Assembly (NCBI GenBank): GCA_000004985.1
Contig: GG738865.1
Strand: one strand, 5' to 3'
DNA from: Naegleria gruberi
Taxonomy: Eukaryota
DNA length: 64,000 nt
The notes under the pieces were generated by a model. It was not told where the DNA came from, made no database searches, and worked only from the letters and a program-made list of their open reading frames with translations. The position numbers and the translations under genes are program-made. Shown piece by piece: positions 2,046-61,455 of this stretch; the stretch's first letter is position 1, and every line of letters begins with the position of its first letter.

Positions 2046-3492
2046 TTATTCACCTTCAGGATCGACCACTTCCTCACTTGCAGCAGATTCTTCACCATCC
2101 TGTTCAGTGCCGTTAGAGAGACTTTGTTTTCTCTCTTCCAAATTCTGCTCTTCAATTTGTTTTCTTTTGGCTTCTTCTCTTTTCCTTAATTCACGTCTTC
2201 TCCTCTCCATTTCTTTTGATTCGGCATCGACAATGTCTGTAAACTTTTCTCGATACTCTGTAATTTGCTTAATCTTTAAATTATAAAATGAGAAACATTG
2301 CTTGAATAGTATGGAGTGATCGTACAGTCTTCTAGTACTGTGATTCAAATAGTGCAATACTTCTCCCATGTGTAATCTTTGTTCAAGTGCAGTGTCATGC
2401 AATTTGAGATATGACATTGCTACTCTGAAAAGTATTTTTGTTCCTTCACTGAAAACTAAATCTAAAACTCTCATCGATGTCTCAATAGGGAAAACCTCAA
2501 TAAATAATCTCATGAACCATCCACTGGCAAATGCCGTTGTCTCTACTCCAAATTTATGTAAATGAGCATGAAGTTTTGGTAATCTTTCCTTGATTAGTTC
2601 GTCCAAAACATAAGAATCCACTCTCATACCAGTAAGTTCTGGATTATAATAATTTGCTGGTAAAATGTCTTCGAGTAAGGTTACTAAGAGCCAAAAAGCT
2701 TCTTCCTCTCCACAGTGCAATAATAAACTTCCGACAATATAGTTCAAACTCTGGCAATAGCTTACGTAAGGGTTTCTCCAACTGAATGCTGTCAATACAT
2801 TCTTCATTTGTGATCTTCCTATTGAGTGACTATTACAGAAAAATGGATGTGAAGGGAAAGTTCTACACAAATCCAAGTCTATCTGAGCTTCATTCGGACA
2901 TGTTTGACCCTTGTGAACTGTTTGATTTAAATTAAAAAGAACTTTAAATATTTACCTTCGAGAATCTTCTTGTAATATCCTCTGTTTTCCTTCATTTTCT
3001 TATCCACTCCCGTTATTTGAATCCAAACATGTCTTCTATACCAAGATGGAATTGAATGTTTTCTTACCAGTGCCTTGACTGTTTTCCTTGCAGAGTCCGA
3101 TTTTAACAATTTTCCTTGAATTCCACCACATTCATCAATATAATGTTTCCACGCTTTTGAACTTTCTTCATAGACTTTTTCTCTTTTTGATTTAATCCAT
3201 TGTGTATAGGCTTGATAAACTTCAGGATCATCATTTGATTGAGGTTCAGGAAATCCATAATTTACAATTGAACACCACTGATAATTAATTTGTAATTCAT
3301 CGGTGTCGTTCAACAATTTTAATCCATCCTCATGAATAGTATCATCTAAAAAGTTTCATCAAAAAAAGTAGATTTATCACCCCCGTCATCATTTTAATAT
3401 TTCATCAAACAAATATATAAAAACATACGATCTTCCTCTTCGGTTAGGTTATGATTGATAGGCCCTTTTGATTTGAATGGATTGAGAGGCAT
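2046..3492 (-). CDS. TBC-domain Rab GTPase-activating protein (3 exons)
   Basis: Exon 1 3492..3429 (MPLNPFKSKGPINHNLTEEED). GTATGT intron 3428..3346. Exon 2 3345..2956 (…GIQGKLL…IPSWYRRHVW…YYKKILEG). GTAAAT..AAACAG intron 2955..2918 (38 nt). Exon 3 2917..2046. The Arg-finger motif IDLDLCRTFP and the Gln-finger YCQSLNYIV (YxQ) are both present. Splice phases were checked by hand. Confidence 0.85.
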
Positions 3493-3832: not shown

Positions 3833-4924
3833 CTAAAAATCCTTAATTCCCTTCTCATTGCTGCCGTCACCATTCCTCAGATACATCATGACTGCAACAA
3901 ACAAAAGAATATTATGAGCATGTTTAACATCCACACAATTAATTTCCAAATACAAACTTCCATTACTTTTAAAAGCAATTAATTGAGCTCTCTTTCTTTG
4001 AATAATTCGTTCATAATCTGGAACTAGATCCGTTTTGTTTCCAATTAGTATACTTTCCACCTTTTCAGTTCCTTTGATATCATTAATATCATTCTCGGCT
4101 CTATCCAATGATTCTAAACGATTCAAATCAAACATTATCAAAGCAGTATTTGCATTCCTCTTGTATAAAGATGTATAAAAATAAGCAGGTTGATCCCATA
4201 ATTGCAAATCTCTAAGGATACCATCCCAAAGTTTGTAAATTTTGAATGTGTGTGCTGATGACACTACTCCAGGAGTGTAATCTCCAATTGATAAACTGTC
4301 AAGAGAGCTTTTCACAAAGCTCGTTTTTCCTACATGATGGTCACCCGTCATGATACATTTGAAAATTTTCTTATTGAACTCTAGGTTGTTTGAGGTGGAT
4401 ACAGAACTAGTGCTGGATGATAATAATCTCGACGAAAAATAAGAAAATAAATTGAATAAACTATTGGGAGATTCCTTTTTTGGTTCATCTTTTGGTTGTT
4501 CAATTTTTTTTGAAAGTATGTCAAAATAATATTCCACCAATTTCATTTCATCAAGAAACCAATTGGTTCTCTTTGGTTCGAATTTTTCCCATTCAAATCT
4601 TTGTCTTTCCCTTTTTTTAAATTCACTTCCTTCAAGAAATTCCACACATAATCCATAAATATGTTCCCTTAGCTTTAATTTTAGAAAATGGGTGAATAAT
4701 TTGTGTTCATTACAACTTTGAATATCTAACGAAGAATAGTTAATATTAGATAAAAATTCTGTAAATTGTTTGTAAATCTCCCGAAACGATAATTCTCTCC
4801 AGGATTCACAAACTCTTCCAATAGTGAAATATTGTTCTGGAATTGAAAAGAAATGATAAATCTCCAACAATAATTCTTCGGGAAGATTATTGATCGTGGC
4901 AACAATTTGTTGATTTTCTTTCAT
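3833..4924 (-). CDS. F-box domain fused to an atypical Rab-like small GTPase domain
   Basis: Real ATG at 4924 (MKENQQ…); the earlier M in the ORF track is a TTG. The N-terminus LPEELLLEIYHFFSIPEQYFTIGRVCESWRELS matches the F-box consensus. C-terminal GTPase motifs: P-loop GDHHVGKTS, switch-I Thr (DYTPGV) and an NKxD box (GNKTDL). DxxGQ is replaced by WDQPAYF, with no Gly or Gln, and the SAK box is degenerate (EINCVD). Confidence 0.7.
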   Translation of the reverse strand: MKENQQIVATINNLPEELLLEIYHFFSIPEQYFTIGRVCESWRELSFREIYKQFTEFLSNINYSSLDIQSCNEHKLFTHFLKLKLREHIYGLCVEFLEGSEFKKRERQRFEWEKFEPKRTNWFLDEMKLVEYYFDILSKKIEQPKDEPKKESPNSLFNLFSYFSSRLLSSSTSSVSTSNNLEFNKKIFKCIMTGDHHVGKTSFVKSSLDSLSIGDYTPGVVSSAHTFKIYKLWDGILRDLQLWDQPAYFYTSLYKRNANTALIMFDLNRLESLDRAENDINDIKGTEKVESILIGNKTDLVPDYERIIQRKRAQLIAFKSNGSLYLEINCVDVKHAHNILLFVAVMMYLRNGDGSNEKGIKDF

Positions 4925-4994
4925 TTTTCTTTCTTCAAAAAAAGCCAATTTCAAATTACAAAATTTGAGAATAATTTTATTGAAATAACAGAGT

Positions 4995-6061
4995 TTAGAA
5001 AATGAATGGAACGAGGACCTTTCTGTTCTTTGGATAGAGTTCTCTACCGTCCTTACCGTCGAACAACTTCTTCAAAGCAACGTGCTTCTTAATAGCCCAT
5101 GGAAGCATTTGACCAGCACCACTGAGAGTGTACAAGAAACATGGGAGAGATTGAATCATGATTGAGAAGAAAATCCATTCCAAAATTTCAAAAGTATAAT
5201 TTGGACAAGTGACGTATTCAAAGAGGAATCCTCTTGGGATCTTTCTACCCTTTTCACCTGGCTTTCTCAAATTCTTCAAGATAATGTGACAAACAAAGTT
5301 ACCAAGCATGGACAAAACAACACCAGCAGCACCAATGTAAACTTGGAGATCAGATGGTGATTGATACTTTGGATGGATAGTAAAGTGAGCAACAAGATAA
5401 GCATAACCCCAATAATAAATACTATTCTTGAAAATGTTGAAAATTGGCATGGTATCAGTACCGAAAACGTGAACAAAGAGAGTTTCAAATTCTCTCTTGA
5501 TAAAGTGAGCCATGAAGAGAACAGTGGCGATCCTATTATTATTGTGTGATGGTGATGATGATCAGTTATTATCAATAAATTTCACATAATTATTAACAAA
5601 ATCAAAATTATTTAACACAATCATGATGTCATCATTAAAAATCACCATTAATTCAATATCATCATCGGATCAAATATAAAAACATACATTTGAGTATTGT
5701 TCAATTGAACAGGTTCTCCGTGAATGTAAGGAGCCAAAAAGTAGGCAAGTGGGAAAGTCAAGATTGGACCAAAATATTCAGTCAAAAAGACGGTTCTCCA
5801 AGCAATTTGAGGACCCAAATCCTTGAACATGACAACAGATCCGTCCTTCAAATCAGCAACAGGTCCATTATTTTCAGCAGCAACGATCATCTTTCCTCTT
5901 TGACCAGTAGTAGCATCCACATAGTAAAAAGCTTGTCTACTTGGATCAACTCTCTTTTGTTGATGATAGGCCTTCTTCAAATCAGTCAAGCTTGGTGCTT
6001 GCAAATCCAACTCGGCCAATTGCTTCTTGCCGGTTCTTGCATCAACGACGGAAATTTTCAT
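4995..6061 (-). CDS. TECR: very-long-chain enoyl-CoA reductase (TECR/Tsc13-like; N-terminal ubiquitin-like domain plus 3-oxo-5-alpha-steroid 4-dehydrogenase domain)
   Basis: Exon 1 6061..5688 has a UBL-like N-terminus (MKISVVDARTGKK…). A GTATGT…AATAATAG intron (5687..5533, 155 nt) joins with phase 2 to exon 2 5532..4995 (IATVLFMAHFIKREFETLFVH…FEYVTCPNYTFEILEWI…), the conserved steroid-5-alpha-reductase C-terminal region. Confidence 0.85.
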
Positions 6062-8030: not shown

Positions 8031-10205
8031 TTACAAGTTCTTGTTACTCAATTCTAATGTGATTAAACCTCTAGCATAGGATACCCAGTAGATTCTATTC
8101 TTACTTTCAATGTAGAGGAATTCCTTCTTTGATTTGGCTAAGAAATTGTTGGCTATCACTCTCATACGAGTTTCCTTGGTTTGTTCAATGGCTTTAGTTC
8201 CAAGAATTGAGGCAGGTTTAGATTTAACAGTATTTGGATTCAAACTCTTTCTCTTTGATGAAATTGGTTGTGGAACAGAGAATTCATCATCGTCACTACT
8301 AACAACTTCAACATAGAAATCATCCAAAAGACCCTTATTTTCAGTAGTGAGGGTTGAGGTACTATCTCCAACATTGGTTCCATTATTTCTTACAGGAACT
8401 TCGCTAGTAACTCTTCTGTGAGCATTGGATAATCCTCCACCTGGTGAATTGGCAGGAATGTTTGGATTATTTTCAATATTGTTTGGACCAAACTTTTCTG
8501 GAACTTGAGTGAAATGTTCAACAATGGTAACATGTTCTGGATCCTTTTCATCTCTCATAATCTTAATAGAGTGATTGTAATCTGACAAGTTGAAATACTT
8601 CTTGTTGAATTGAATTCTGGTTACAGCTGGTTCTGCAGTTTCAATAAGTCTGAATTCCTTCTTGAAAGAGCTGATATCCTTTACAACGAGGACATTTTCA
8701 ACCAATTGAGGGAATTCCATTGATAATCTTCTAGAAGCACCCAACATTCCATATGTTGAGAACAATGAAGAGACATCATTTGGATTTAATTTTGGTTTCT
8801 CCTCAGCATTTGAAATATCTAAAAGTGATGGATCAACTCCAATGAAATTCATCATGTTTGCTTTTTCATTATTTTTGACATCAACTTGTGGATGAATGAC
8901 AAATTGGAGACGAAGTGGGCCAGTTTTTTGTTGTGGTCTATTGCTTTGAGTATTCATATTAGAAACCATATTCGAAAGTGAACTAAAGAAAGTATTGGAA
9001 TCATAACTCTTTCTCTTGGTCAATGGTTCACTATCAGCATCATCAGCAGAACTTGATCCTTGTCCAGAAACTCCACTAGATTGTTGAGAGGGAACATATT
9101 GATATGGTTTCTTCTTCTTTCCAATATATTCATTATTTGTGGTATTGTTATCATCCATATAAATTTCAATAACACCATTTCTGACAAAGCATTCCTTATC
9201 AACAATGTGACGATCAAACCAAACACCACTCATATACAATGAGCATGGTCTTCTGAGTGGATCCTTATCAAAGAATATCAAACAACGTTGATTAGAACGA
9301 TTGGTACGATCTTGGAAGCAATCTGAAACATATAATTGATCTCCAACAATATTATACAATTGATCAGAAACATCAAGCATAAAGTAATCAGATTCCTTGA
9401 TTATCTTTTGTGCAAACAATTGCAAGTCATGGAATCCATATTCAGGAGCATCTAATTCAGAACTTCTGTACTCTGCAGAGTCAAATAAATTCAACTCTCC
9501 ACTCTTCAAATATTCCAAGATGAGAGCAAAGTACTTTGGATTTCTATCAATAAAGTAGCATCCATTTTCATCCTTGATAAAACCCAAATGCTGATTTTCG
9601 TCCAACAATCTGGTAAAATAGTTTTCAAAGACTGTTGTTGAAGTGGACGAAACATTACTTAGTCTATTATTGTTTTGATTTGATGAAGAAGTAGTTCCTT
9701 CAGAAAAGCTCATTCTACTCTTACGATTGTGCAAATCAACAAAAGTTGAAAGTGAATTATAAGCCAAATTATTAGAATTGGTCAAATCACCACTACTTCC
9801 AGTACCACTATTACCTGCTGTTGTTGTTGTTGTTGGTGTAGAACCTTGAGGAGAGTTATTATTTGTTGTGGTTGTATTAGAAAGTGGTTGTTTTTGATGA
9901 GTTGTCTCCTGATGATTCAAGTAATTCTTCATGGCCAATTGGTAGGCTGTTGGAGAACGAATCTTTTGAGAGAAGGGCAAGCAATTGCCTGGAAAAACCA
10001 ACTCATTAATATTCGACTGATTAGCATTATTCTTATAAATTGCACTATGATGATATGAATTGAGAATAGTCTCACGAGTTGTATAGAGAATTTTACCTCC
10101 CACATTAAATTTGATCAATTGATGATAATGTGGAACTGGTGATGAAGAAGAACCACTACTACCACCACCTGACATTTGTTGTTGCTGTGCTTGCAGAGGA
10201 ATCAT
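8031..10205 (-). CDS. BTB/POZ (KCTD-type, BTB_2) domain protein with long low-complexity inserts
   Basis: The likely ATG is at 10205 (MIPLQAQQQQMSGGG…); the track start at 10232 is a TTG. The tetramerisation-type BTB motifs IKFNVGGKILYTTRETILNS and …CYFIDRNPKYFALILEYLKSGELNL are split by an N/T/S-rich insert. The C-terminal ~400 aa have no recognisable domain. Confidence 0.55.
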   Translation of the reverse strand: MIPLQAQQQQMSGGGSSGSSSSPVPHYHQLIKFNVGGKILYTTRETILNSYHHSAIYKNNANQSNINELVFPGNCLPFSQKIRSPTAYQLAMKNYLNHQETTHQKQPLSNTTTTNNNSPQGSTPTTTTTAGNSGTGSSGDLTNSNNLAYNSLSTFVDLHNRKSRMSFSEGTTSSSNQNNNRLSNVSSTSTTVFENYFTRLLDENQHLGFIKDENGCYFIDRNPKYFALILEYLKSGELNLFDSAEYRSSELDAPEYGFHDLQLFAQKIIKESDYFMLDVSDQLYNIVGDQLYVSDCFQDRTNRSNQRCLIFFDKDPLRRPCSLYMSGVWFDRHIVDKECFVRNGVIEIYMDDNNTTNNEYIGKKKKPYQYVPSQQSSGVSGQGSSSADDADSEPLTKRKSYDSNTFFSSLSNMVSNMNTQSNRPQQKTGPLRLQFVIHPQVDVKNNEKANMMNFIGVDPSLLDISNAEEKPKLNPNDVSSLFSTYGMLGASRRLSMEFPQLVENVLVVKDISSFKKEFRLIETAEPAVTRIQFNKKYFNLSDYNHSIKIMRDEKDPEHVTIVEHFTQVPEKFGPNNIENNPNIPANSPGGGLSNAHRRVTSEVPVRNNGTNVGDSTSTLTTENKGLLDDFYVEVVSSDDDEFSVPQPISSKRKSLNPNTVKSKPASILGTKAIEQTKETRMRVIANNFLAKSKKEFLYIESKNRIYWVSYARGLITLELSNKNL

Positions 10206-10676
10206 AATTTCCCAAAAGTTTAAATGTATCAAAACAACTGTAAATCAAAGAAGGCTTTCAACTTTTTTTAAATTTTTAAGAAAATAAAATTTGGATTGTT
10301 GCTGCTTGGAAAGGAGATGATGGATCACAACTAAAATTGACGAGAGAACCCATCACTGCCTATTGTTCTTTATTGTCACTTGAATGATATCTGGAGAAGG
10401 ATTGCATCCAAGTAAATTTACTGGGAGATGGGAACGCAGATAACAAATTGGTTCACTTAATCTTGGAGAGGAAAGTTGACCTCAATAATTGATATTTTGA
10501 ATCTGGTTTTTTTTTTCAAATGTGTCAACTGAGATGCATTCAAAGTTCATTGACCTGGCTTGAATGAGGAGAATATTCTGATATTCATTTCAATATTACA
10601 ATATTACAAAAATAGTTAATAAAGAATATTCACTTTTCCAAATTCAATCAATTTGATGAAAAATTAATTTAAAAAA

Positions 10677-23607: not shown

Positions 23608-24366
23608 TTTTTTTAATATCACTTGACAGTTGAAGGATTTTAAATTGTTTTATTTCACCAACATACAACTAACTCATTGAATTTTGATGTATTTTGAAAT
23701 AGTGAAATATTACATTTTTTCTTTTTCAATTTTGCAACTTTTTATGAAGATTTTTCAAGGAATTCAATTTTGAAATTGTAAAGTGGTGAAAATTGTAATG
23801 AATTTAAATGATTTTTTAGTGAAGTGATAACATTTGATAGATAACGAATAATACTTCAAATTTATTATCCTAAACATATACACAATCTTTCAAAATCTTG
23901 CAGCAATTTAATATGGATGCTGCTCTCGCCAATAAGTTCAATAATTATTCTTGGAAGGATTGAACGTAATGCATTCGTTAAAATTGTCTGCCTTTTAGTC
24001 AAGGATGGACAATCGATCCTATCCTCTTTAACTTGGAACCCAGTTACAATTCTCACTGTCACTTGTCAGTAATCGTAAAATTAAAAAAAACTGTTACACC
24101 TTCAACGTGTCGATCATCACACAGTTTTGATCTCAGAACAACAACAAAACATTATCTAGGTGATCCATCGAATCGTTGAAAGGATTTTGTAAATAATTTG
24201 TATGTGTGTGATTTTTAAACAACAAATTTACCTTCCGATCATTTTTAATAACAAAAATTTGACACTTGTATTTCTTTTTATATCTATATTTGATAATATC
24301 TATCGATTAATACTATCTAACATTGTTTATATTGTTTTGCGGATTATTTCAAAATCGTATAGAAAA

Positions 24367-27300
24367 ATGACGAAAGAAGACGAAAAGAAAGAGAAGGAAA
24401 GAATCAAGGAAGAAGAAAGAAAACGAAGGGAAGAAGAGAAAAGACGTAAAGAAGAAGAGAAGGAAGAAGAAAGAAAACGAAAGGAAGAAGAACGTCGTTT
24501 AAAAAAGGAAGAAAAGAAACAAAAAGAAGACCAAAAGAAAAAGGAAAAGGAACTTAAAAAACTCAACAAGAAACTAAATGCTTCATCAAATTCAAGTTTT
24601 GATGGTGCCCCTTCAACACCAACTTCTGAATTAAATGTTTCAATTGGTGATGTAAATGGTGATCCTTTGGGAGGTCTTTCCGAAACTGAACTAAATGAAA
24701 ATATTGAAAAGATGTTAAATTCTATTGGAGCTAAGGAAGATGTGAGAGAAGCAGTTCGTGCCAATCAACCTGCAATGAAATATATTTTATGGAAAACATG
24801 GTATGAACAGTCCAATGATGATAACATTATTCCTTCCATTGAAAAATTGATTGACAGAATGAATACAAGAAAGGATCGTGAGACAATGCAAGATGTTTTG
24901 GTTAAATTACGTAATTCTACAGTTGCCTGGGTTGATTCTTTTATTGATTGTGGTGGTGTGAAGAGTGTAAATGAAATTCTCTCCTCTACAAATTTATTGA
25001 AAAAGACAAAGAATAAGGACGATGATACTCTACAATGGTTATGTTTGAACTGTTTACGTGCTGTTTTAAATACTGAAAAGGGTTTAGCTGCAATTGCACA
25101 TGACAAGACAATCTTTTTCAATATGGCTCTATTGTTGGATTCTGAAAATATTGAAATTAGAATTCAATGTTTATTTATTTTTGCTAATTTTTGCTCTGAG
25201 GACAGTGTTGGAGATGGTTACAAAATTATTCTCTCATCATTGGAGCATTTCAAATTTATTAGACGTGAAAAGCAAATGTTTGAATTTTTAGTGACAAGTT
25301 TAGAAAATCAATTAGATGTCACCTATATGACACACGTTATTTTCTTATTCAATTCACTGTTAACAAATGCTGATCCAACTGATACTATTACACTCGCCAA
25401 TCAATTGAACAGTTTGAAGGTAGTTGAAGTAATCAGAGAACAAATTCAAGGGAAACAAATTGACGATGAAGGTTTCCAAGTTCAATTCCAAATGTTCGTC
25501 GAAGAAATGGAACAAGCTCTCAAAAAGAATGTTGTCCAAATTGATACTAACGATCCACACCAAATTACCGATCATTTGAGAATGAAAATTCAAGGTACTC
25601 AATCTATGGATAGTTTTATGAGAATTTTGAGACATTTGCTCGTATTTACCGATGTTTATGCAGCAAAGTTTACTCTTGAAGAAACTATTGAATTGTGGAA
25701 ACAAGTGGAATTGTCCGTTGAAAGATTAATTCGTGAAAGACAATTTCTTGTTGATAATATTCCTCAAACACCAACATGTGAAACTCCATCCTCTGCTACT
25801 CAACCTCTCCTTCTCAGTCCATTATTGAAGAAGATGAGACATGGTAAATCATTCAAGGACAATACAACTACTGATGGTGAGTCCATAGATGAAACATCGG
25901 TAGAAGCTACATCTGTAGCTGAAGAAGCTCTCCATAAAAGATTACTCGCTCAAGATGAAACCATTCAACAATTACAAGCCGAATTAAAGGAAAAGAAGGA
26001 AGAATTGGAATTACTTAAACAAGCTGGAGAAAGTGTTACTGGTCAAGTTGAAAAGGAAAAGCATGAAAAGGAGATTGAAAGACTTCAAGATAAAATCAAT
26101 ACTATTGAATCAGAGAACCAAACCTATCAAAAGATGATTTCCGTTCTTGAGGATACCAAGGAAAAGCTTAAAGAAAAGGTCAAATCACTTAAATCTAAAC
26201 CTAACGAATCCCCAATTGGAAATAGTCAAGAATTTTTCAAACTGAAAGACAAAGCTCAACAATTAGAACTAACCATCACTAAACTCACTACTGATAATGA
26301 AAATTTGAAGAAGCAACTTGAAGAAAGTAAGAAGAAAATAGAGGAAAGTAAGAAGGAAATTGCAGAAAAAAAGAAAGAAATTGAAGAAAGAAAGAAAGCT
26401 GCTGAATCTGTATCCACTACTGTTGTGACTGCTGTTCCACCACCTCCAGGTTCTACAGGATTCGTCCCACCACCTCCAGGTGATATGACTGGTGTTCCTC
26501 CTCCACCTGGCTCAACAGGATTTGTTCCTCCTCCACCTGGTGGTGTCTCAGATTCTGTACCTCTCCCTCCTGGATCAACTGGGTTTGTTCCACCACCTCC
26601 AGGTGGTTTAACTGGAGGTGTTCCTCCTCCACCAGGCATGACTGGTGTTCCTCCTCCTCCTGGAAGTGGTATACCTCTTCCTCCAGGTGTTGGTGTTCCT
26701 CCTCCTCCTGGAATGACTGGTGTTCCTCCTCCACCAGGTGGTGGTGTTCCTCTTCCTCCAGGTAGTACACCTCCTCCGCCAGGTAGCTTCTTACCTCCTC
26801 CACCAGGATTTATGAAACCTCCAAATGCCATGCCAGCTCTTCCTAAACTTCCAGATTTCAAATCAAATGCCAAACTTCGTGCCTTCCACTTTGGTAATAT
26901 TCAAAATAAGAGTGTTCCAGAAACTATCTTTGCCAAATTCAAAATTATTGATCAAACTCATACAATTTTACGTGATTTGGACACTGCAGAATTTGAGGAA
27001 ACTTTTGGAATTAAGGCAAGTGCAACTCCTGGTACAGGTACAACTGCTGAACCAAAGAAGGAAAAGATTACTCTCATTGATGGAAAGAGATCTCACAATA
27101 TCAGTTTACAATTAGGTTCATTGCGTGGTATTCCTTATCCAAAATTAAAACAAGCCATTCTCGAGTTGGACGAATCTGTAGTGACACCTAATAATATTTC
27201 AACTATCAAGCAAATTGTTCCAACAGAAGAAGAATCACAACTTTGTGTAGATTATGAAGGTGATCGTGATGAACTTCAAGTTGCTGATTTGTTCTTTATT

Positions 27301-28365
27301 GAAATGCACGGAATTCCAAAGATGGTTGATAGATGTGAAGCTTGGGAATTCAAGATGAAATTTGATGAAGTTATTGCTGGTATTGAACCAGTAATTGGCA
27401 ATATTAGAAAGGCATGTGCTGAATTGGAAAGTTGTGATCAATTCCACAAAATTTTGGGTGTTATTTTAACTCTAGGTAACTTTTTAAATAGTAGTAGCAA
27501 GAAGGTAGCTTATGCTTTCAAGATGGCATCACTTGCCAAGTTGAGCGATACCAAGGCAGCTAATGGTAAATCCAGTTTATTGACCTACTTGGTTAAATTT
27601 ATTCAAGAAAAGTATCCAGAATTGGAAACCTTCTATGAAGGGTTGACTTCCGTCAGTGGTGCCACACGTGTTGCTATCGGTTCAATTAAGGATGATATTC
27701 AACAAACTAATACTTCCATCAATAAGCTCAAGACTCTGTATGAACAGTGTGCTAAGGATCCATTGGAAGGGGATAAATTCCCATCTGTTATGGGTTCCTT
27801 CTTGGAGAAGGTTTCAACAAAAATCAAAACAGTTGAAGACAATTATGCCGCTATGATGACAGAATTGAAGAATGTTGCCCTCCTTTACAATGAAGCTGAA
27901 TCTGACATGCAAAAGGAACCTGACAAATTCTTCCAACTCATTGATGGATTTGTCAAGAGTTTCAACGATACTAAGGAAAAGTTGAGAAAGGAAAGAGAAG
28001 CCGAAGAAAAGAAAAAGAAGAAACAATTACCAACTCCAACCAAAGCTGGAGGAATTGGTATCAACACTTCAGGTATCAATAGAGGAACAAGATCTCCATC
28101 CACGAAAACTCCACAATCTCCAGGAGCTGTCTCTCCTAGTGATGAAAGAGGTGGTTTTGATAAGAAGGGTGCACTCTTATTGAAGAATGCTGAACTTTTG
28201 AGAAAGAGAAGAAATACTAAATTGAATAGTGTCGATTTAGATATGGATACAACCTCACCTCCAGCTCATACAAGAACTCCAAGTCAATTGAGTGGTCAAT
28301 TGAGCATGGGAGCTTTTTTAAATAAGCATATTGCTAATAATAATAGTGGTAGCAGCACTCAATAA
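24367..28365 (+). CDS. Diaphanous-related formin (GBD/FH3, coiled coil, FH1, FH2)
   Basis: Real ATG at 24367; the track start at 24202 lies upstream of a better A-rich ATG context. An N-terminal K/E/R charged stretch precedes armadillo-like GBD/FH3 (…LQWLCLNCLRAVLNTEKGLAAIAH…) and a coiled coil. FH1 has about 13 tandem Pro-rich units (GFVPPPPG / GVPPPPG). FH2 carries …ILGVILTLGNFLNSSSKKVAYAFKMASLAKLSDTKAANGKSSLLTYLV…. The C-terminus has a basic DAD-like region. 1333 aa, single exon. Confidence 0.9.
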   Translation: MTKEDEKKEKERIKEEERKRREEEKRRKEEEKEEERKRKEEERRLKKEEKKQKEDQKKKEKELKKLNKKLNASSNSSFDGAPSTPTSELNVSIGDVNGDPLGGLSETELNENIEKMLNSIGAKEDVREAVRANQPAMKYILWKTWYEQSNDDNIIPSIEKLIDRMNTRKDRETMQDVLVKLRNSTVAWVDSFIDCGGVKSVNEILSSTNLLKKTKNKDDDTLQWLCLNCLRAVLNTEKGLAAIAHDKTIFFNMALLLDSENIEIRIQCLFIFANFCSEDSVGDGYKIILSSLEHFKFIRREKQMFEFLVTSLENQLDVTYMTHVIFLFNSLLTNADPTDTITLANQLNSLKVVEVIREQIQGKQIDDEGFQVQFQMFVEEMEQALKKNVVQIDTNDPHQITDHLRMKIQGTQSMDSFMRILRHLLVFTDVYAAKFTLEETIELWKQVELSVERLIRERQFLVDNIPQTPTCETPSSATQPLLLSPLLKKMRHGKSFKDNTTTDGESIDETSVEATSVAEEALHKRLLAQDETIQQLQAELKEKKEELELLKQAGESVTGQVEKEKHEKEIERLQDKINTIESENQTYQKMISVLEDTKEKLKEKVKSLKSKPNESPIGNSQEFFKLKDKAQQLELTITKLTTDNENLKKQLEESKKKIEESKKEIAEKKKEIEERKKAAESVSTTVVTAVPPPPGSTGFVPPPPGDMTGVPPPPGSTGFVPPPPGGVSDSVPLPPGSTGFVPPPPGGLTGGVPPPPGMTGVPPPPGSGIPLPPGVGVPPPPGMTGVPPPPGGGVPLPPGSTPPPPGSFLPPPPGFMKPPNAMPALPKLPDFKSNAKLRAFHFGNIQNKSVPETIFAKFKIIDQTHTILRDLDTAEFEETFGIKASATPGTGTTAEPKKEKITLIDGKRSHNISLQLGSLRGIPYPKLKQAILELDESVVTPNNISTIKQIVPTEEESQLCVDYEGDRDELQVADLFFIEMHGIPKMVDRCEAWEFKMKFDEVIAGIEPVIGNIRKACAELESCDQFHKILGVILTLGNFLNSSSKKVAYAFKMASLAKLSDTKAANGKSSLLTYLVKFIQEKYPELETFYEGLTSVSGATRVAIGSIKDDIQQTNTSINKLKTLYEQCAKDPLEGDKFPSVMGSFLEKVSTKIKTVEDNYAAMMTELKNVALLYNEAESDMQKEPDKFFQLIDGFVKSFNDTKEKLRKEREAEEKKKKKQLPTPTKAGGIGINTSGINRGTRSPSTKTPQSPGAVSPSDERGGFDKKGALLLKNAELLRKRRNTKLNSVDLDMDTTSPPAHTRTPSQLSGQLSMGAFLNKHIANNNSGSSTQ
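26431..26830 (+). repeat. coding tandem repeat: formin FH1 poly-proline units (~13 copies of a 27-33 nt GGTxxxCCTCCTCCACCAGG period)
   Basis: Direct reading shows repeated ccaccacctccagg / cctcctccacctgg units. The overlapping antisense ORFs 26256..26873 and 26453..26803 are the G-rich complement of this repeat and are not genes. Confidence 0.85.
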
Positions 28366-28406: not shown

Positions 28407-29524
28407 TTACATGACATTACACTTTTTAGGTTGCTTTTGGACTCTCTTTTTACATTCGTCAATGAATGCTACATCGTATTCCACACAACCTTGCAACAGA
28501 GCTACATTGTCAACTCCGCCAAGTCTCTGTTTTCTAATAAGTTCTTCGAAAATAAGAGTGACATTCTCTCCAAGTTTAGCACTGCTCATCACTATTGAAT
28601 AGTTCAACAATGAATATTCTGAAATAATTGAATTGAATTCAGATTTATACTTCTCAACAGTTTCTGCTCTATTTTCTTTCAATAAATCCATCTTGTTCAT
28701 TACAAACACAATTGGCATGTCATTAACTACATAATCTTTACAACGAATCAACAGGTCAACTTGATAACGAACATCTCTCAAAGAACTTTCATCATTCACT
28801 GCACAAACAATTACAAAACTTTGACCAACTCTCAGGTATTGATCTCTCATTGCAGAGAACTCCTCTGGACCAGCTATTTTCAAAACATTATTCAAATATT
28901 CTATTAAAAACTCAAAAACATACCAGTATCTAGAATATCCAATAATACAGGCTCTCCATCAACCTCAACATGTTTTCTATAAGAATCCTCAATTGTTGGA
29001 TCGTACTCTGATATAAAGACATTTTGAACGTAGTGAATTGTCAATGCAGATTTTCCTAAAATAGCTTAGTTTTAAATTCAAATAATGAAATACTAACCCA
29101 CTCCTCCTTGCCCAAGCACAACCACTTTAACTTCTTCTGATCCCTTACTCGGATCATATTTTGGTCTTTTCCACACTTTAAACTTGATGAAACTTGCCAA
29201 TAGAATTTTCCTCTTCATATCCCCTTTTTTAATCATTTGTGATTTGAGTTGTTCCAACTCCTTTTCAAATGCAGGCATTACAAAATTCTTTTCCAATACT
29301 GTCCACCAAAATGTATTGAAATAGTTCTGCATTTCATTCATACTCGAAATTCTCTTGCTGATTGATTGAAAAATTGCTGCCATTCTAATGTCAGATTTTC
29401 TACTCGCAGGATTATTCAATTCTTTATCAACTCCGAATGATAAAATATGTTGGAAAATTTCATAGGGAAGTGATGAGAATAGCGTTTGATGGTGGTGAGG
29501 CATTTTTTTTCTTTCTTTTTGCAT
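28407..29524 (-). CDS. Ras-subfamily small GTPase with a ~140-aa N-terminal extension bearing an F-box-like motif, 3 exons, CAAX tail
   Basis: Real ATG at 29524. Exon A 29524..29098 carries [18 protein letters not shown] (F-box-like, weak) and ends …[17 protein letters not shown] intron 29097..29056 (42 nt). Exon B 29055..28924 continues the P-loop exactly as GQGGVG|[50 protein letters not shown] intron 28923..28874 (50 nt). Exon C 28873..28407 reads [23 protein letters not shown]…NKMDL…SAK…KKCNVM. The protein is roughly 60% identical to H-Ras across the G domain by eye. The position equivalent to Ras Gln61 is Pro (DTAGPEEF). Confidence 0.85.
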
Positions 29525-56615: not shown

Positions 56616-57499
56616 TTACTCAATTTCAGCATTTTGTTGGAACTTGTTAAAGGTTTTACTGTCGAAAAACCATGGTTGTAGTTGGAGCAATATTTCTACA
56701 AGCTTAATAGGAGTTAGTTTGAGTGTCTTATTCTGCTTAATAAATTCAGTTGCTTCTTCCCCATAAATAAAAGATTCATCTACACCAAAGGAGGCCAAGC
56801 ATCCATGATTCAAACTCATTGACCATTGAGTGCTATCTGAATCCCCTTCGTCATATCCTTCAAAATTAAATTTTGTTTTTCCAATCTTTCCTTCCAAATA
56901 AAAATTCTTTCTAAAATCTCCTACCACAACCACTTCACTACTGTGAAGAGTAAACTTGGAAAATATCTCATCTTGAATTGCTGGTTTAGTCTTTGTATCA
57001 TTGTATTTATCCAAAAACATATCCCACTTTTTGAATAGTTGATTTTTGACAGTCTGTTGAGCATCCAAAAATTCCTTCTTCCCCTTCACATAATTGGCAA
57101 CATCTTCAAATTGAATACGTGTTTTTTCTTCAGGTGTTTGCTTCTTTTCTTCTTCATCCTCATCGATGTGAATTTTCTTTTTCTTTAATGACTTGTTTTT
57201 ATGATCTTTTGCATGATCATTATCCGATCGAACTGATTTTCATTAATTATAATATTGTTAGAACGATATATTACAATCTATTTACCTCTCTTGTATTTTG
57301 ATCCTGAGAGTAAATCTTTCTTTTGTAATTCATGAAAGATCATTCTCTTGATTCTTGTGGCGAACAAATCGTTATGTTTCATGTAAATTTCCTTGTAACA
57401 ATATTGTGATGTGAGGGAGAAATTCAAGAGGGTATCTTCCAAAGAGCAAAAGTCTGCTATCGTCAGGAAAAGCTCGTTGGGCAAGGTTGTGAGAGACAT
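56616..57499 (-). CDS. F-box domain protein, 2 exons
   Basis: The likely ATG is at 57499 (MSLTTLPNELFLTIADFCSLEDTLLNFSLTSQYCYKEI, an F-box-like LPxEL…I…L…L pattern); the track start at 57523 is GTG. Exon 1 ends at 57286 (…KYKR, phase 1). A GTAAAT intron 57285..57233 (53 nt). Exon 2 57232..56616 has a K/D/E-rich linker and an uncharacterised C-terminal domain. Junction phase verified. Confidence 0.55.
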
Positions 57500-61384: not shown

Positions 61385-61455
61385 GCATTAGTAGTGTAAC
61401 GGTATCATACCAGCCTTCCAAGCTGGTGACCCGGGTTCGACTCCCGGCTAATGCA
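61385..61455 (+). tRNA. tRNA-Gly(UCC): tRNA-Gly (anticodon UCC)
   Basis: GCATTAGTAGTGTAACGGTATCATACCAGCCTTCCAAGCTGGTGACCCGGGTTCGACTCCCGGCTAATGCA. The 7-bp acceptor stem GCATTAG/CTAATGC pairs perfectly. The D-arm carries an A-box (TAGTGTAACGG). The anticodon loop is CTTCCAA, so TCC. The T-arm carries the B-box GGTTCGACTCC. Discriminator A; no encoded CCA; no intron. Near-identical to canonical eukaryotic tRNA-Gly-TCC. Confidence 0.9.

What the first reader, a model, noticed from the sequence alone, without database searches (positions are those of the whole stretch)
3833..4924. F-box fused to a degenerate Rab-like GTPase domain
One polypeptide starts with a textbook F-box (LPEELLLEIYHFFSIPEQYFTIGRVCESWRELS). 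F-boxes are SCF ubiquitin-ligase substrate adaptors. It ends with a small GTPase domain that keeps the nucleotide-binding elements: the P-loop GDHHVGKTS and the NKxD box GNKTDL. The catalytic switch-II DxxGQ is replaced by WDQPAYF, and the SAK box is degenerate. This reads as a GTP- or GDP-binding but hydrolysis-dead sensor module wired to SCF. I do not recognise this as a standard architecture. A second GTPase with an F-box-like N-terminus (28407..29524) and a third F-box gene (56616..57499) in the same 64 kb suggest an expanded lineage-specific family.
Basis: partly seen in the sequence, partly recalled or inferred. Interest (0 to 1): 0.75.

Follow-up and report, generated by a model that had tools for sequence, protein, structure and literature searches.

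The report
Published Naegleria F-box–Rab-like GTPase gene
This is a real gene of the amoeba Naegleria gruberi that joins a ubiquitin-ligase docking motif (F-box) to a degenerate Rab-type GTPase domain, but this exact gene and its family were already catalogued in a 2021 Naegleria genome paper, so it is interesting biology and not a new discovery.

Summary
A single uninterrupted ORF on the minus strand (ATG 4924, stop 3833-3835, 363 aa) encodes an N-terminal F-box, which scores above the curated cut-off of both Pfam F-box models. It also encodes a C-terminal Ras/Rab-type G domain (Pfam Ras 7.6e-13; the best solved relatives are Rab1 and Rab3). The P-loop and NKxD box are intact. Switch II is reduced to WDQPAYF by a two-residue deletion, so both the DxxG glycine and the catalytic glutamine are missing. 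The SAK box is degenerate and there is no prenylation cysteine.

The window is Naegleria gruberi. The NCBI model (XP_002677810.1, 237 aa) holds only the GTPase half. The exact 363-aa corrected model is listed as "Rab + F-box" in Table S8 of Herman et al. 2021 (BMC Biol, PMC8296547). That paper describes three Naegleria-specific F-box–Rab-like clades and proposes GTPase-dependent ubiquitination. Full-length relatives occur only in Naegleria.

One is a true Ras paralog with no detectable F-box. The other has only a sub-threshold F-box.

The mechanism is inferred, not shown: an SCF adaptor whose receptor or regulatory module is a nucleotide-binding, probably hydrolysis-impaired G domain. Novelty: already known.

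The parts
3833..4924 (-). Complete single-exon CDS, 363 aa plus TAG stop. It is Naegleria gruberi NAEGRDRAFT_67061, and matches the corrected gene model XP_002677810.1* of Herman et al. 2021.
   Evidence: ORF. It is 100% identical to P0001/XP_002677810.1 over aa 127-363. The full 363-aa sequence is printed in Table S8 of PMC8296547.
4766..4894 (-). F-box (aa 11-53), the presumed Skp1-docking motif.
   Evidence: Pfam PF12937 28.3 bits and PF00646 27.2 bits, both above their cut-offs. The family profile hits the F-boxes of FBH1, FBXL17, FBXW7 and Skp2. P15, V38 and R43 are invariant and C39 and W42 nearly invariant across the family.
4511..4747 (-). Family-specific helical linker module (aa 60-138), with no known fold or Pfam match.
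   Evidence: It is conserved across paralogs; R86, E126, Y133, F134 and F137 are nearly invariant. Helices are predicted at 75-98 and 117-138. Foldseek against the PDB found nothing significant. The truncated NCBI model starts at Met127, inside this module.
4379..4510 (-). Low-complexity, Ser-rich, predicted disordered spacer (aa 139-182).
   Evidence: pLDDT is below 50 for residues 139-182. The region is variable in length and poorly aligned in paralogs.
3875..4369 (-). Rab-like G domain (aa 186-350) with no C-terminal prenylation cysteine.
   Evidence: Pfam Ras 7.6e-13 over aa 189-338. The best PDB sequence hits are Rab1A and Rab3B. Foldseek top hits are all Rab structures, with target-normalised TM-scores of 0.7-0.8. 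The C-terminus reads ...NEKGIKDF and contains no Cys.
4319..4345 (-). G1 / P-loop GDHHVGKTS (aa 194-202), intact.
   Evidence: G194, G199 and S202 are invariant and K200 nearly invariant in the family.
4178..4198 (-). Degenerate G3 / switch II, WDQPAYF (aa 243-249). A two-residue deletion relative to the family consensus WDxxGPERF removes the DxxG glycine, and no catalytic Gln is present.
   Evidence: Motif table, alignment to Rab1A, and my codon check.
4025..4042 (-). G4 box GNKTDL (aa 295-300), intact, so guanine specificity is probably kept.
   Evidence: [NT]KxD is present in 11 of the 12 aligned family members; P0011 reads TRSD. D299 is invariant and K297 nearly invariant.
3932..3946 (-). 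Degenerate G5: EINCV in place of ETSAK (aa 327-331).
   Evidence: The family consensus is E[IT][TS]N[TS]. Alignment to Rab1A.

Best explanation
This is a real, intact, single-exon gene of Naegleria gruberi (NAEGRDRAFT_67061). It belongs to one of the Naegleria-specific clades of F-box-Rab-like GTPases that have already been described. The protein has four parts: an F-box, a family-specific helical linker, a disordered spacer, and a Rab-derived G domain without a lipid anchor.

The most likely mode of action is inferred, not shown. The F-box docks on Skp1 and so recruits a Cul1-based SCF ubiquitin ligase. The G domain takes the place of the usual WD40 or LRR substrate-binding domain. It would either present Rab-effector-like partners for ubiquitination or gate ligase assembly by an intramolecular contact, as the GTPase domain of RhoBTB does for Cul3.

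In this paralog the P-loop and NKxD box predict guanine-nucleotide binding. The deleted switch II has neither the DxxG glycine nor the catalytic Gln. That predicts no normal GTP/GDP switch or intrinsic hydrolysis, so the domain would be a pseudoGTPase-like, constitutively loaded module. I put identity and architecture at about 0.95 and the SCF-receptor mechanism at about 0.4.
For: Identity: 100% match to XP_002677810.1. The full corrected model is listed as 'Rab / F-box' in Table S8 of PMC8296547, and the family is described in Additional file 4 of that paper.

Fusion is real: there is one ORF with no stop between the domains. At least nine full-length collinear relatives (F-box, linker, G domain) exist in N. 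gruberi and N. fowleri, with independent gene models, for example XP_044563075.1, 407 aa, named 'F-box domain-containing protein'. The NCBI start at Met127 cuts through a conserved helix.

F-box. Rab-like fold. Motif states.

Analogy: RhoBTB proteins assemble Cul3 ligases and are autoinhibited by their GTPase domain (PMC4931677). Herman et al. themselves propose 'GTPase-dependent ubiquitination'.
Against: There is no experimental evidence of any kind for Skp1 binding, nucleotide binding, substrates or expression. Herman et al. state that no specific functional prediction is possible.

The gene has no close orthologue. The best relative is 34% identical, a metagenome scan found nothing, and the gene appears only once in Table S8. 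Purifying selection on this copy therefore cannot be measured.

Its G2 and G3 motifs are among the most eroded in the family, which also fits relaxed constraint. The isolated N-terminal model gave no structural match to F-box proteins, although that model was only of moderate confidence.
Confidence: 0.8

Rival explanations
1. The F-box is a self-destruction tag. It recruits SCF mainly to ubiquitinate the GTPase itself, giving a short-lived, dynamically controlled Rab-like protein rather than a receptor for other substrates. This does not exclude the main explanation.
For: For the Euglenozoan FYVE-F-box-GTPase TbFRP, the authors link the F-box to rapid turnover and proteolysis of the protein (PMC3593210). 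RhoBTB proteins are themselves substrates of the Cul3 complexes they form (PMC4931677).
Against: There are no turnover data for any Naegleria member. F-box proteins in general are auto-ubiquitinated as a by-product of being receptors (my own knowledge), so self-turnover would not separate the two models.
Confidence: 0.25
2. It is a decaying or neutrally drifting paralog in a birth-and-death family. The ORF is still open, but the GTPase has lost function and the gene has little or no role.
For: [quoted passage not shown] This copy has lost the DxxG glycine and the RabF1/RabF3 motifs that the family consensus retains. It has no 1:1 orthologue.
Against: The 363-codon ORF is intact with no frameshift. 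Herman et al. do not flag it as a putative pseudogene. It keeps all the invariant and nearly invariant family positions in the F-box (P15, V38, C39, W42, R43), the linker (R86, E126, Y133, F134, F137), the P-loop and NKxD. Three other intact family members have similarly reduced switch II regions, which suggests a tolerated functional state.
Confidence: 0.2
3. It acts in a non-SCF Skp1 complex in membrane traffic. The F-box binds Skp1 without cullin, as in yeast Rcy1 and Roy1, and the protein works as a trafficking regulator rather than an E3 adaptor.
For: Yeast non-SCF F-box proteins act with Rab GTPases. Roy1-Skp1 binds and inhibits the Rab5-like Ypt52, and Rcy1 is discussed in the same paper (PMC3084679). 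The G domain here is Rab-derived.
Against: The protein has no prenylation cysteine, so it has no obvious membrane anchor. Nothing in the sequence distinguishes SCF-type from non-SCF F-boxes.
Confidence: 0.15
4. The F-box part and the GTPase part are separate products. The 237-aa NCBI model would then be the real protein, and the upstream F-box-like reading frame would be untranslated or a separate gene.
For: The deposited NCBI/JGI model XP_002677810.1 starts at Met127 and lacks the F-box.
Against: The frame is open and conserved across the junction. The upstream part scores as an F-box plus a family-specific linker with a family profile (E 6e-21 and 1e-28). Paralogs and the N. fowleri homologue are annotated full length. 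Herman et al. manually corrected this model to 363 aa. The neighbouring upstream gene ends at 4995, only 70 bp from the ATG.
Confidence: 0.03

Closest known systems
Naegleria-specific F-box-Rab-like GTPases (Herman et al. 2021, BMC Biol 19:142, Additional files 4 and 10)
   Same: It is the same gene. The 363-aa sequence is printed in Table S8 as Rab with an F-box additional domain. The collinear paralogs (XP_002675157.1, XP_002676638.1, XP_002677004.1, XP_002680716.1, XP_002676681.1) are listed beside it.
   Different: Nothing in the architecture differs. The paper does not comment on G-motif states. This analysis adds two points: the clade consensus has Pro in place of the catalytic Gln (WDxxGPERF), and this paralog has further lost the DxxG glycine through a two-residue deletion.
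TbFRP (Trypanosoma brucei FYVE-F-box-Ras-like GTPase; PMC3593210)
   Same: An F-box lies N-terminal to a Rab-related G domain in one polypeptide of a discobid protist. [quoted passage not shown]
   Different: TbFRP also has an N-terminal FYVE domain that binds PI3P, and no FYVE hit is found here. The TbFRP authors found no orthologue in N. gruberi, so the two fusions are probably independent.
RhoBTB proteins (atypical Rho GTPase + BTB domains, Cul3 adaptors; PMC4931677)
   Same: An atypical Ras-superfamily G domain is fused to a cullin-adaptor domain. RhoBTB supplies the best-studied working model: the G domain autoinhibits adaptor-cullin binding, and the protein is both a receptor and a substrate.
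   Different: The adaptor domain differs (BTB/Cul3 versus F-box/Skp1-Cul1). The domain order is reversed, with the GTPase N-terminal in RhoBTB. The G domain is Rho-type, not Rab-type.
Yeast non-SCF F-box proteins Roy1 and Rcy1 acting on Rab GTPases (PMC3084679)
   Same: They link an F-box/Skp1 module functionally to a Rab GTPase.
   Different: In yeast the F-box protein and the Rab are separate polypeptides acting in trans. Here they are fused.

Membership tests
F-box domain proteins (Pfam PF00646 / PF12937) | Sequence matches the F-box profile above the curated gathering score | tested here: met
   PF12937 28.3 bits against 24.3; PF00646 27.2 bits against 20.5. The family profile hits solved F-boxes: FBH1 7e-7 and FBXL17 3.6e-5.
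F-box domain proteins (Pfam PF00646 / PF12937) | Binds Skp1 and assembles into an SCF complex | not testable with these tools
   This needs pull-down or co-expression with Naegleria Skp1/Cul1.
Rab family of small GTPases | Ras-superfamily G-domain fold, with Rabs as the closest relatives | tested here: met
   Pfam Ras 7.6e-13. The top PDB sequence hits are Rab1A and Rab3B. The top 50 Foldseek hits are all Rab structures.
Rab family of small GTPases | Rab-family (RabF) motifs: IGVDF, KLQIW, RFRSIT, YYRGA, LVYDIT (list recalled from my own knowledge) | tested here: not met
   The family consensus keeps TIGxDF, QLW, ERFRxIT and YYRN. This protein keeps only LQLW and partial F4/F5 (LYKRNA, LIMFDL); F1 and F3 are lost.
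Rab family of small GTPases | C-terminal cysteine motif for geranylgeranylation | tested here: not met
   The C-terminus is ...LRNGDGSNEKGIKDF, with no Cys.
Rab family of small GTPases | Canonical G3 DxxGQ with the catalytic glutamine | tested here: not met
   The motif reads WDQPAYF. Both Gly and Gln are absent after a two-residue deletion.
Naegleria-specific F-box-Rab-like clade (Herman et al. 2021) | Collinear F-box, conserved N-terminal extension and Rab-like G domain; restricted to Naegleria; listed in the published catalogue | tested here: met
   It aligns full length with 9-11 Naegleria paralogs. None of ten long, multi-domain non-family hits that I scanned has an F-box. The exact sequence is in Table S8.
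TbFRP orthologues (FYVE-F-box-GTPase) | N-terminal FYVE zinc-finger domain | tested here: not met
   No FYVE hit at E<=1 in Pfam. The TbFRP authors found no N. gruberi orthologue.
RhoBTB | Rho-type G domain followed by tandem BTB domains | tested here: not met
   No BTB hit, and the G domain is Rab-like. RhoBTB serves only as a mechanistic analogue.
PseudoGTPases (G domains lacking catalytic or switch motifs) | Loss of one or more G motifs, with impaired hydrolysis and/or nucleotide binding shown biochemically | tested here: inconclusive
   At sequence level G3 and G5 are degenerate while G1 and G4 are intact. Biochemistry cannot be tested here.

The most novel reading that the evidence does not exclude
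The clade, and this paralog in its most extreme form, may be SCF substrate receptors built on a Rab-derived pseudoGTPase. The G domain would stay permanently nucleotide-loaded (P-loop and NKxD kept; catalytic Gln replaced by Pro across the clade; switch II deleted here). It would have been re-purposed as a fast-evolving protein-recognition surface. Naegleria would then generate new E3 specificities by birth-and-death of F-box-GTPase genes, as an SCF counterpart of RhoBTB-Cul3. This goes beyond the published description only in the pseudoGTPase/receptor claim.
Probability: 0.3. Interest if true: 0.5.

Novelty: already known. Interest (0 to 1): 0.25.

Why it matters
F-box-GTPase fusions point to a direct link between small-GTPase signalling and cullin-RING ubiquitination, which is rare outside RhoBTB. 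Naegleria has dozens of them: Table S8 of Herman et al. carries 72 F-box annotations across the two species. That makes it a natural system for asking how a G domain can act as an E3 receptor or gate. For this scan the practical results are these. The public NCBI model of this gene is truncated. The architecture is already in the literature. The only increment here is the motif-level observation that the clade lacks the catalytic glutamine and that this copy lacks a functional switch II.

Tried and rejected
1. Word-indexed homology searches with the protein and with the family alignment returned only the query's own NCBI model and one metagenome relative. They were too insensitive, so I used the full HMMER search instead.
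2. An exact-sequence look-up of the 363-aa product, hoping for transcript-derived contigs, found nothing on record. I therefore obtained no transcript evidence.
3. A metagenome scan for an orthologue, intended for dN/dS, found none.
4. An AlphaFold model of the N-terminal 140 aa (pLDDT 70) gave no significant Foldseek hit in the PDB. The F-box assignment therefore rests on sequence profiles, and the linker module remains without a known fold.
5. A Foldseek search of AFDB50 for the same architecture elsewhere could not be run because the library was unavailable.
6. I tested whether ten of the longer, multi-domain hits from the HMMER search were F-box-GTPases from other lineages. None has an F-box; they are tandem-Ras proteins and other fusions.
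7. I tested the N-terminus of gene 2 as a cryptic F-box. Pfam gave no hit, the family profile gave no hit, and hhalign gave 25% probability over the LPxEI helix only. This is rejected as unsupported, though not excluded.
8. I considered TbFRP orthology and rejected it, because there is no FYVE domain and the TbFRP authors found no Naegleria orthologue.
9. A literature search for the gene's identifiers found no main-text mention.

Full report
WHAT IS THERE. The region 3833..4924 holds one uninterrupted open reading frame on the minus strand. The first ATG is at 4924, the TAG stop is at 3835..3833, and the product is 363 aa. I checked WDQPAYF (4178..4198) and GNKTDL (4025..4042) codon by codon. 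The stop-free frame runs 412 codons (3836..5071). By my own estimate from an assumed AT-rich base composition, not a tool result, the chance of that is about 1e-14. The next gene upstream on the same strand is a steroid-dehydrogenase/TECR-like gene. It ends at 4995, only 70 bp from the ATG, so the F-box cannot belong to it.

DOMAIN TESTS. Pfam gives F-box-like PF12937 at 28.3 bits (cut-off 24.3) and F-box PF00646 at 27.2 bits (cut-off 20.5), both over aa 11-53. It gives Ras PF00071 at 48.8 bits (E 7.6e-13) and Roc at 30.7 bits over aa 189-338. A profile of the family's N-terminal 140 residues finds the F-boxes of solved SCF subunits: FBH1 7e-7, FBXL17 3.6e-5, Dia2, FBXO44/6/42, FBXW7 and Skp2. 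The single sequence alone finds FBXL17, FBH1 and Skp2. The C-terminal domain aligns best to Rab1A and Rab3B. A full-length AlphaFold model (mean pLDDT 68, pTM 0.74) has a G domain that superposes on Rab structures with target-normalised TM-scores of 0.7-0.8.

WHERE IT COMES FROM AND WHETHER IT IS KNOWN. The protein is 100% identical over aa 127-363 to Naegleria gruberi XP_002677810.1 / EFC45066.1 / NAEGRDRAFT_67061. That deposited model is 237 aa and holds only the GTPase half. Herman et al. 2021 (BMC Biol 19:142, PMC8296547) re-annotated all Ras-superfamily genes of N. gruberi. Their Table S8 prints exactly the 363-aa sequence found here as a manually corrected model, 'Rab', with additional domain 'F-box'. 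[quoted passage not shown] Each has a conserved N-terminal extension identifiable in many members as an F-box. The text notes that the F-box is the most frequent extra domain on Naegleria GTPases (Rab, Rho, Ran, G-alpha), points to 'GTPase-dependent ubiquitination', and reports birth-and-death evolution. The architecture, the family and this very gene model are therefore already published, although only in supplementary material. No experimental work on any member turned up.

IS THE FUSION REAL? I could not obtain transcript data. The comparative evidence is strong, however. A full HMMER scan of 1.84 billion representative proteins gave 1,314 hits, almost all generic Ras/Rab domains. About nine relatives align from the F-box to the end of the G domain. 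The named ones are all from N. gruberi (XP_002675157.1, XP_002676638.1, XP_002677004.1, XP_002674905.1, XP_002680716.1 and the Ran-annotated XP_002672613.1) or N. fowleri (XP_044563075.1, named 'F-box domain-containing protein'). One more N. gruberi paralog, XP_002676681.1, was represented in the scan by a 206-aa fragment; its full 365-aa form came from the cluster look-up and also aligns full length. The rest are a few unnamed environmental contigs. The stretch between the two domains is itself conserved: R86, E126, Y133, F134 and F137 are nearly invariant. The NCBI start at Met127 falls inside this conserved helix, so the 237-aa model is a truncation. I scanned ten of the longer, multi-domain hits from the same search and none has an F-box. 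The fusion is therefore lineage-specific.

STATE OF THE GTPase MOTIFS.
- G1 (GxxxxGK[ST]) is intact here and in 10 of the 12 aligned family members.
- G4 ([NT]KxD) is intact here and in 11 of the 12.
- G3: the clade consensus is WDxxGPERF. The DxxG glycine is usually kept, but the catalytic glutamine is Pro in every aligned member that keeps the GPERF form. This protein also has a two-residue deletion (WDQ--PAYF) that removes the glycine. Three other intact members have comparably reduced switch II regions.
- G5 (SAK) is replaced by [IT]N[TCS] throughout the clade.
- The Rab-family motifs survive in the consensus (TIGxDF, QLW, ERFRxIT, YYRN) but are mostly lost in this copy.
- There is no C-terminal cysteine, so no prenyl anchor.
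The phrase 'hydrolysis-dead' remains an inference. TBC RabGAPs supply a glutamine finger in trans (my own knowledge), so loss of the Rab's own Gln is not decisive. Loss of the DxxG glycine, which normally couples the gamma-phosphate to switch II (my own knowledge), is the stronger argument for a non-switching, pseudoGTPase-like domain.

HOW IT MOST LIKELY WORKS (inferred). The F-box would dock on Skp1 and recruit Cul1-Rbx1. In canonical F-box proteins the C-terminal domain binds the substrate. Here that position is occupied by a Rab-like G domain, preceded by a family-specific helical module. The best-studied analogue is RhoBTB. There an atypical Rho domain is fused to BTB domains that assemble Cul3 ligases. 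The G domain binds the first BTB domain and autoinhibits cullin binding, and the protein is both receptor and substrate (PMC4931677). By analogy, the G domain here either presents Rab-effector-like partners to SCF or gates Skp1/Cul1 binding. The relatively high pTM of the two-domain model (0.74) hints at a defined inter-domain arrangement, but I could not inspect the PAE.

Rivals are as follows. (a) The F-box acts mainly as a self-turnover tag, as suggested for the Euglenozoan FYVE-F-box-GTPase TbFRP (PMC3593210). (b) The gene is a drifting paralog of a birth-and-death family. In favour: it has no orthologue and its G2/G3 are eroded. Against: the ORF is intact, all family-invariant positions are retained, and it is not flagged as a pseudogene. 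(c) It acts in a non-SCF Skp1 complex in trafficking, as yeast Roy1/Rcy1 do with Rabs (PMC3084679). (d) The two halves are separate genes, which is very unlikely.

The gene at 28407..29524 (minus strand; exons 29524..29098, 29055..28924 and 28873..28407, read) is a bona fide Ras-family paralog (Pfam Ras 2.4e-36). It has no F-box hit at E<=1 and no hit to the family F-box profile. hhalign gives only 25% probability, confined to the LPxEI helix. Herman et al. list it as 'Ras' without an F-box. The exon at 57278..57499 has a weak F-box signal: 18.8 bits against a cut-off of 20.5, and E 2.5e-4 against the family profile. There is no GTPase downstream of it. A family-profile scan of the six-frame translation of the window finds only the gene at 3833..4924. 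The three genes are thus not a local cluster of one family. The genome-wide expansion is real, but it is already published.

VERDICT. It is untested on mechanism, wrong on novelty, and wrong that the neighbouring genes belong to the same family. Novelty class: already known. The residual increment is small: the clade-wide Gln-to-Pro replacement in switch II, the deleted switch II in this copy, and the note that the public NCBI model is truncated. Interest 0.25.

Noticed in passing
window 2046..3316 (-): The gene immediately downstream on the same strand is a TBC-domain RabGAP (Pfam RabGAP-TBC 1.1e-49). It has both catalytic fingers: LDLCR (Arg) and YCQ (Gln). Adjacency to a Rab-like gene may be coincidence in a eukaryote, but it offers an obvious GAP to test on the neighbouring G domain.
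   Followed up: partly
window 28407..29524 (-); exons 29524..29098, 29055..28924, 28873..28407: This is a Ras-family paralog (XP_002677816.1* in Herman et al.). Its switch II reads DTAGPEE, so the residue equivalent to Ras Gln61 is Pro, the same Gln-to-Pro change seen across the F-box-Rab-like clade. The first 42-nt intron splits the P-loop codons. Its roughly 130-aa N-terminal extension ([12 protein letters not shown]...) is shared with XP_002673837.1 but is not detectably an F-box.
   Followed up: partly
window 3833..4543 versus 3833..4924 (-): The public NCBI/JGI model XP_002677810.1 (237 aa) starts at Met127, inside a conserved helix of the family-specific linker. It omits the F-box, so the database entry is truncated.
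   Followed up: yes
window 4511..4747 (-): A conserved helical module of about 80 aa lies between the F-box and the G domain. It is shared by the whole clade (R86, E126, Y133, F134, F137 nearly invariant) and has no Pfam match and no significant structural match in the PDB. Its role is unknown.
   Followed up: partly
window 56616..57499 (-): This is a two-exon gene. Its first exon (57278..57499) has a sub-threshold F-box (Pfam 18.8 bits against a cut-off of 20.5). The rest of the protein has no Pfam match.
   Followed up: partly
window 8031..10232 (-): A 733-aa ORF with a BTB_2 (T1/KCTD-type) domain (Pfam 2e-12). It is another potential cullin-adaptor-type protein in the window.
   Followed up: no
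window 24202..28365 (+): A 1387-aa ORF that reads as formin-like from its translation alone; I did not scan it against Pfam. It has a long poly-proline FH1-like region (repeated GVPPPPG units) and an N-terminal Lys/Glu-rich low-complexity stretch.
   Followed up: no
window 61385..61455 (+): tRNA-Gly (anticodon TCC), the only tRNA found in the window.
   Followed up: no
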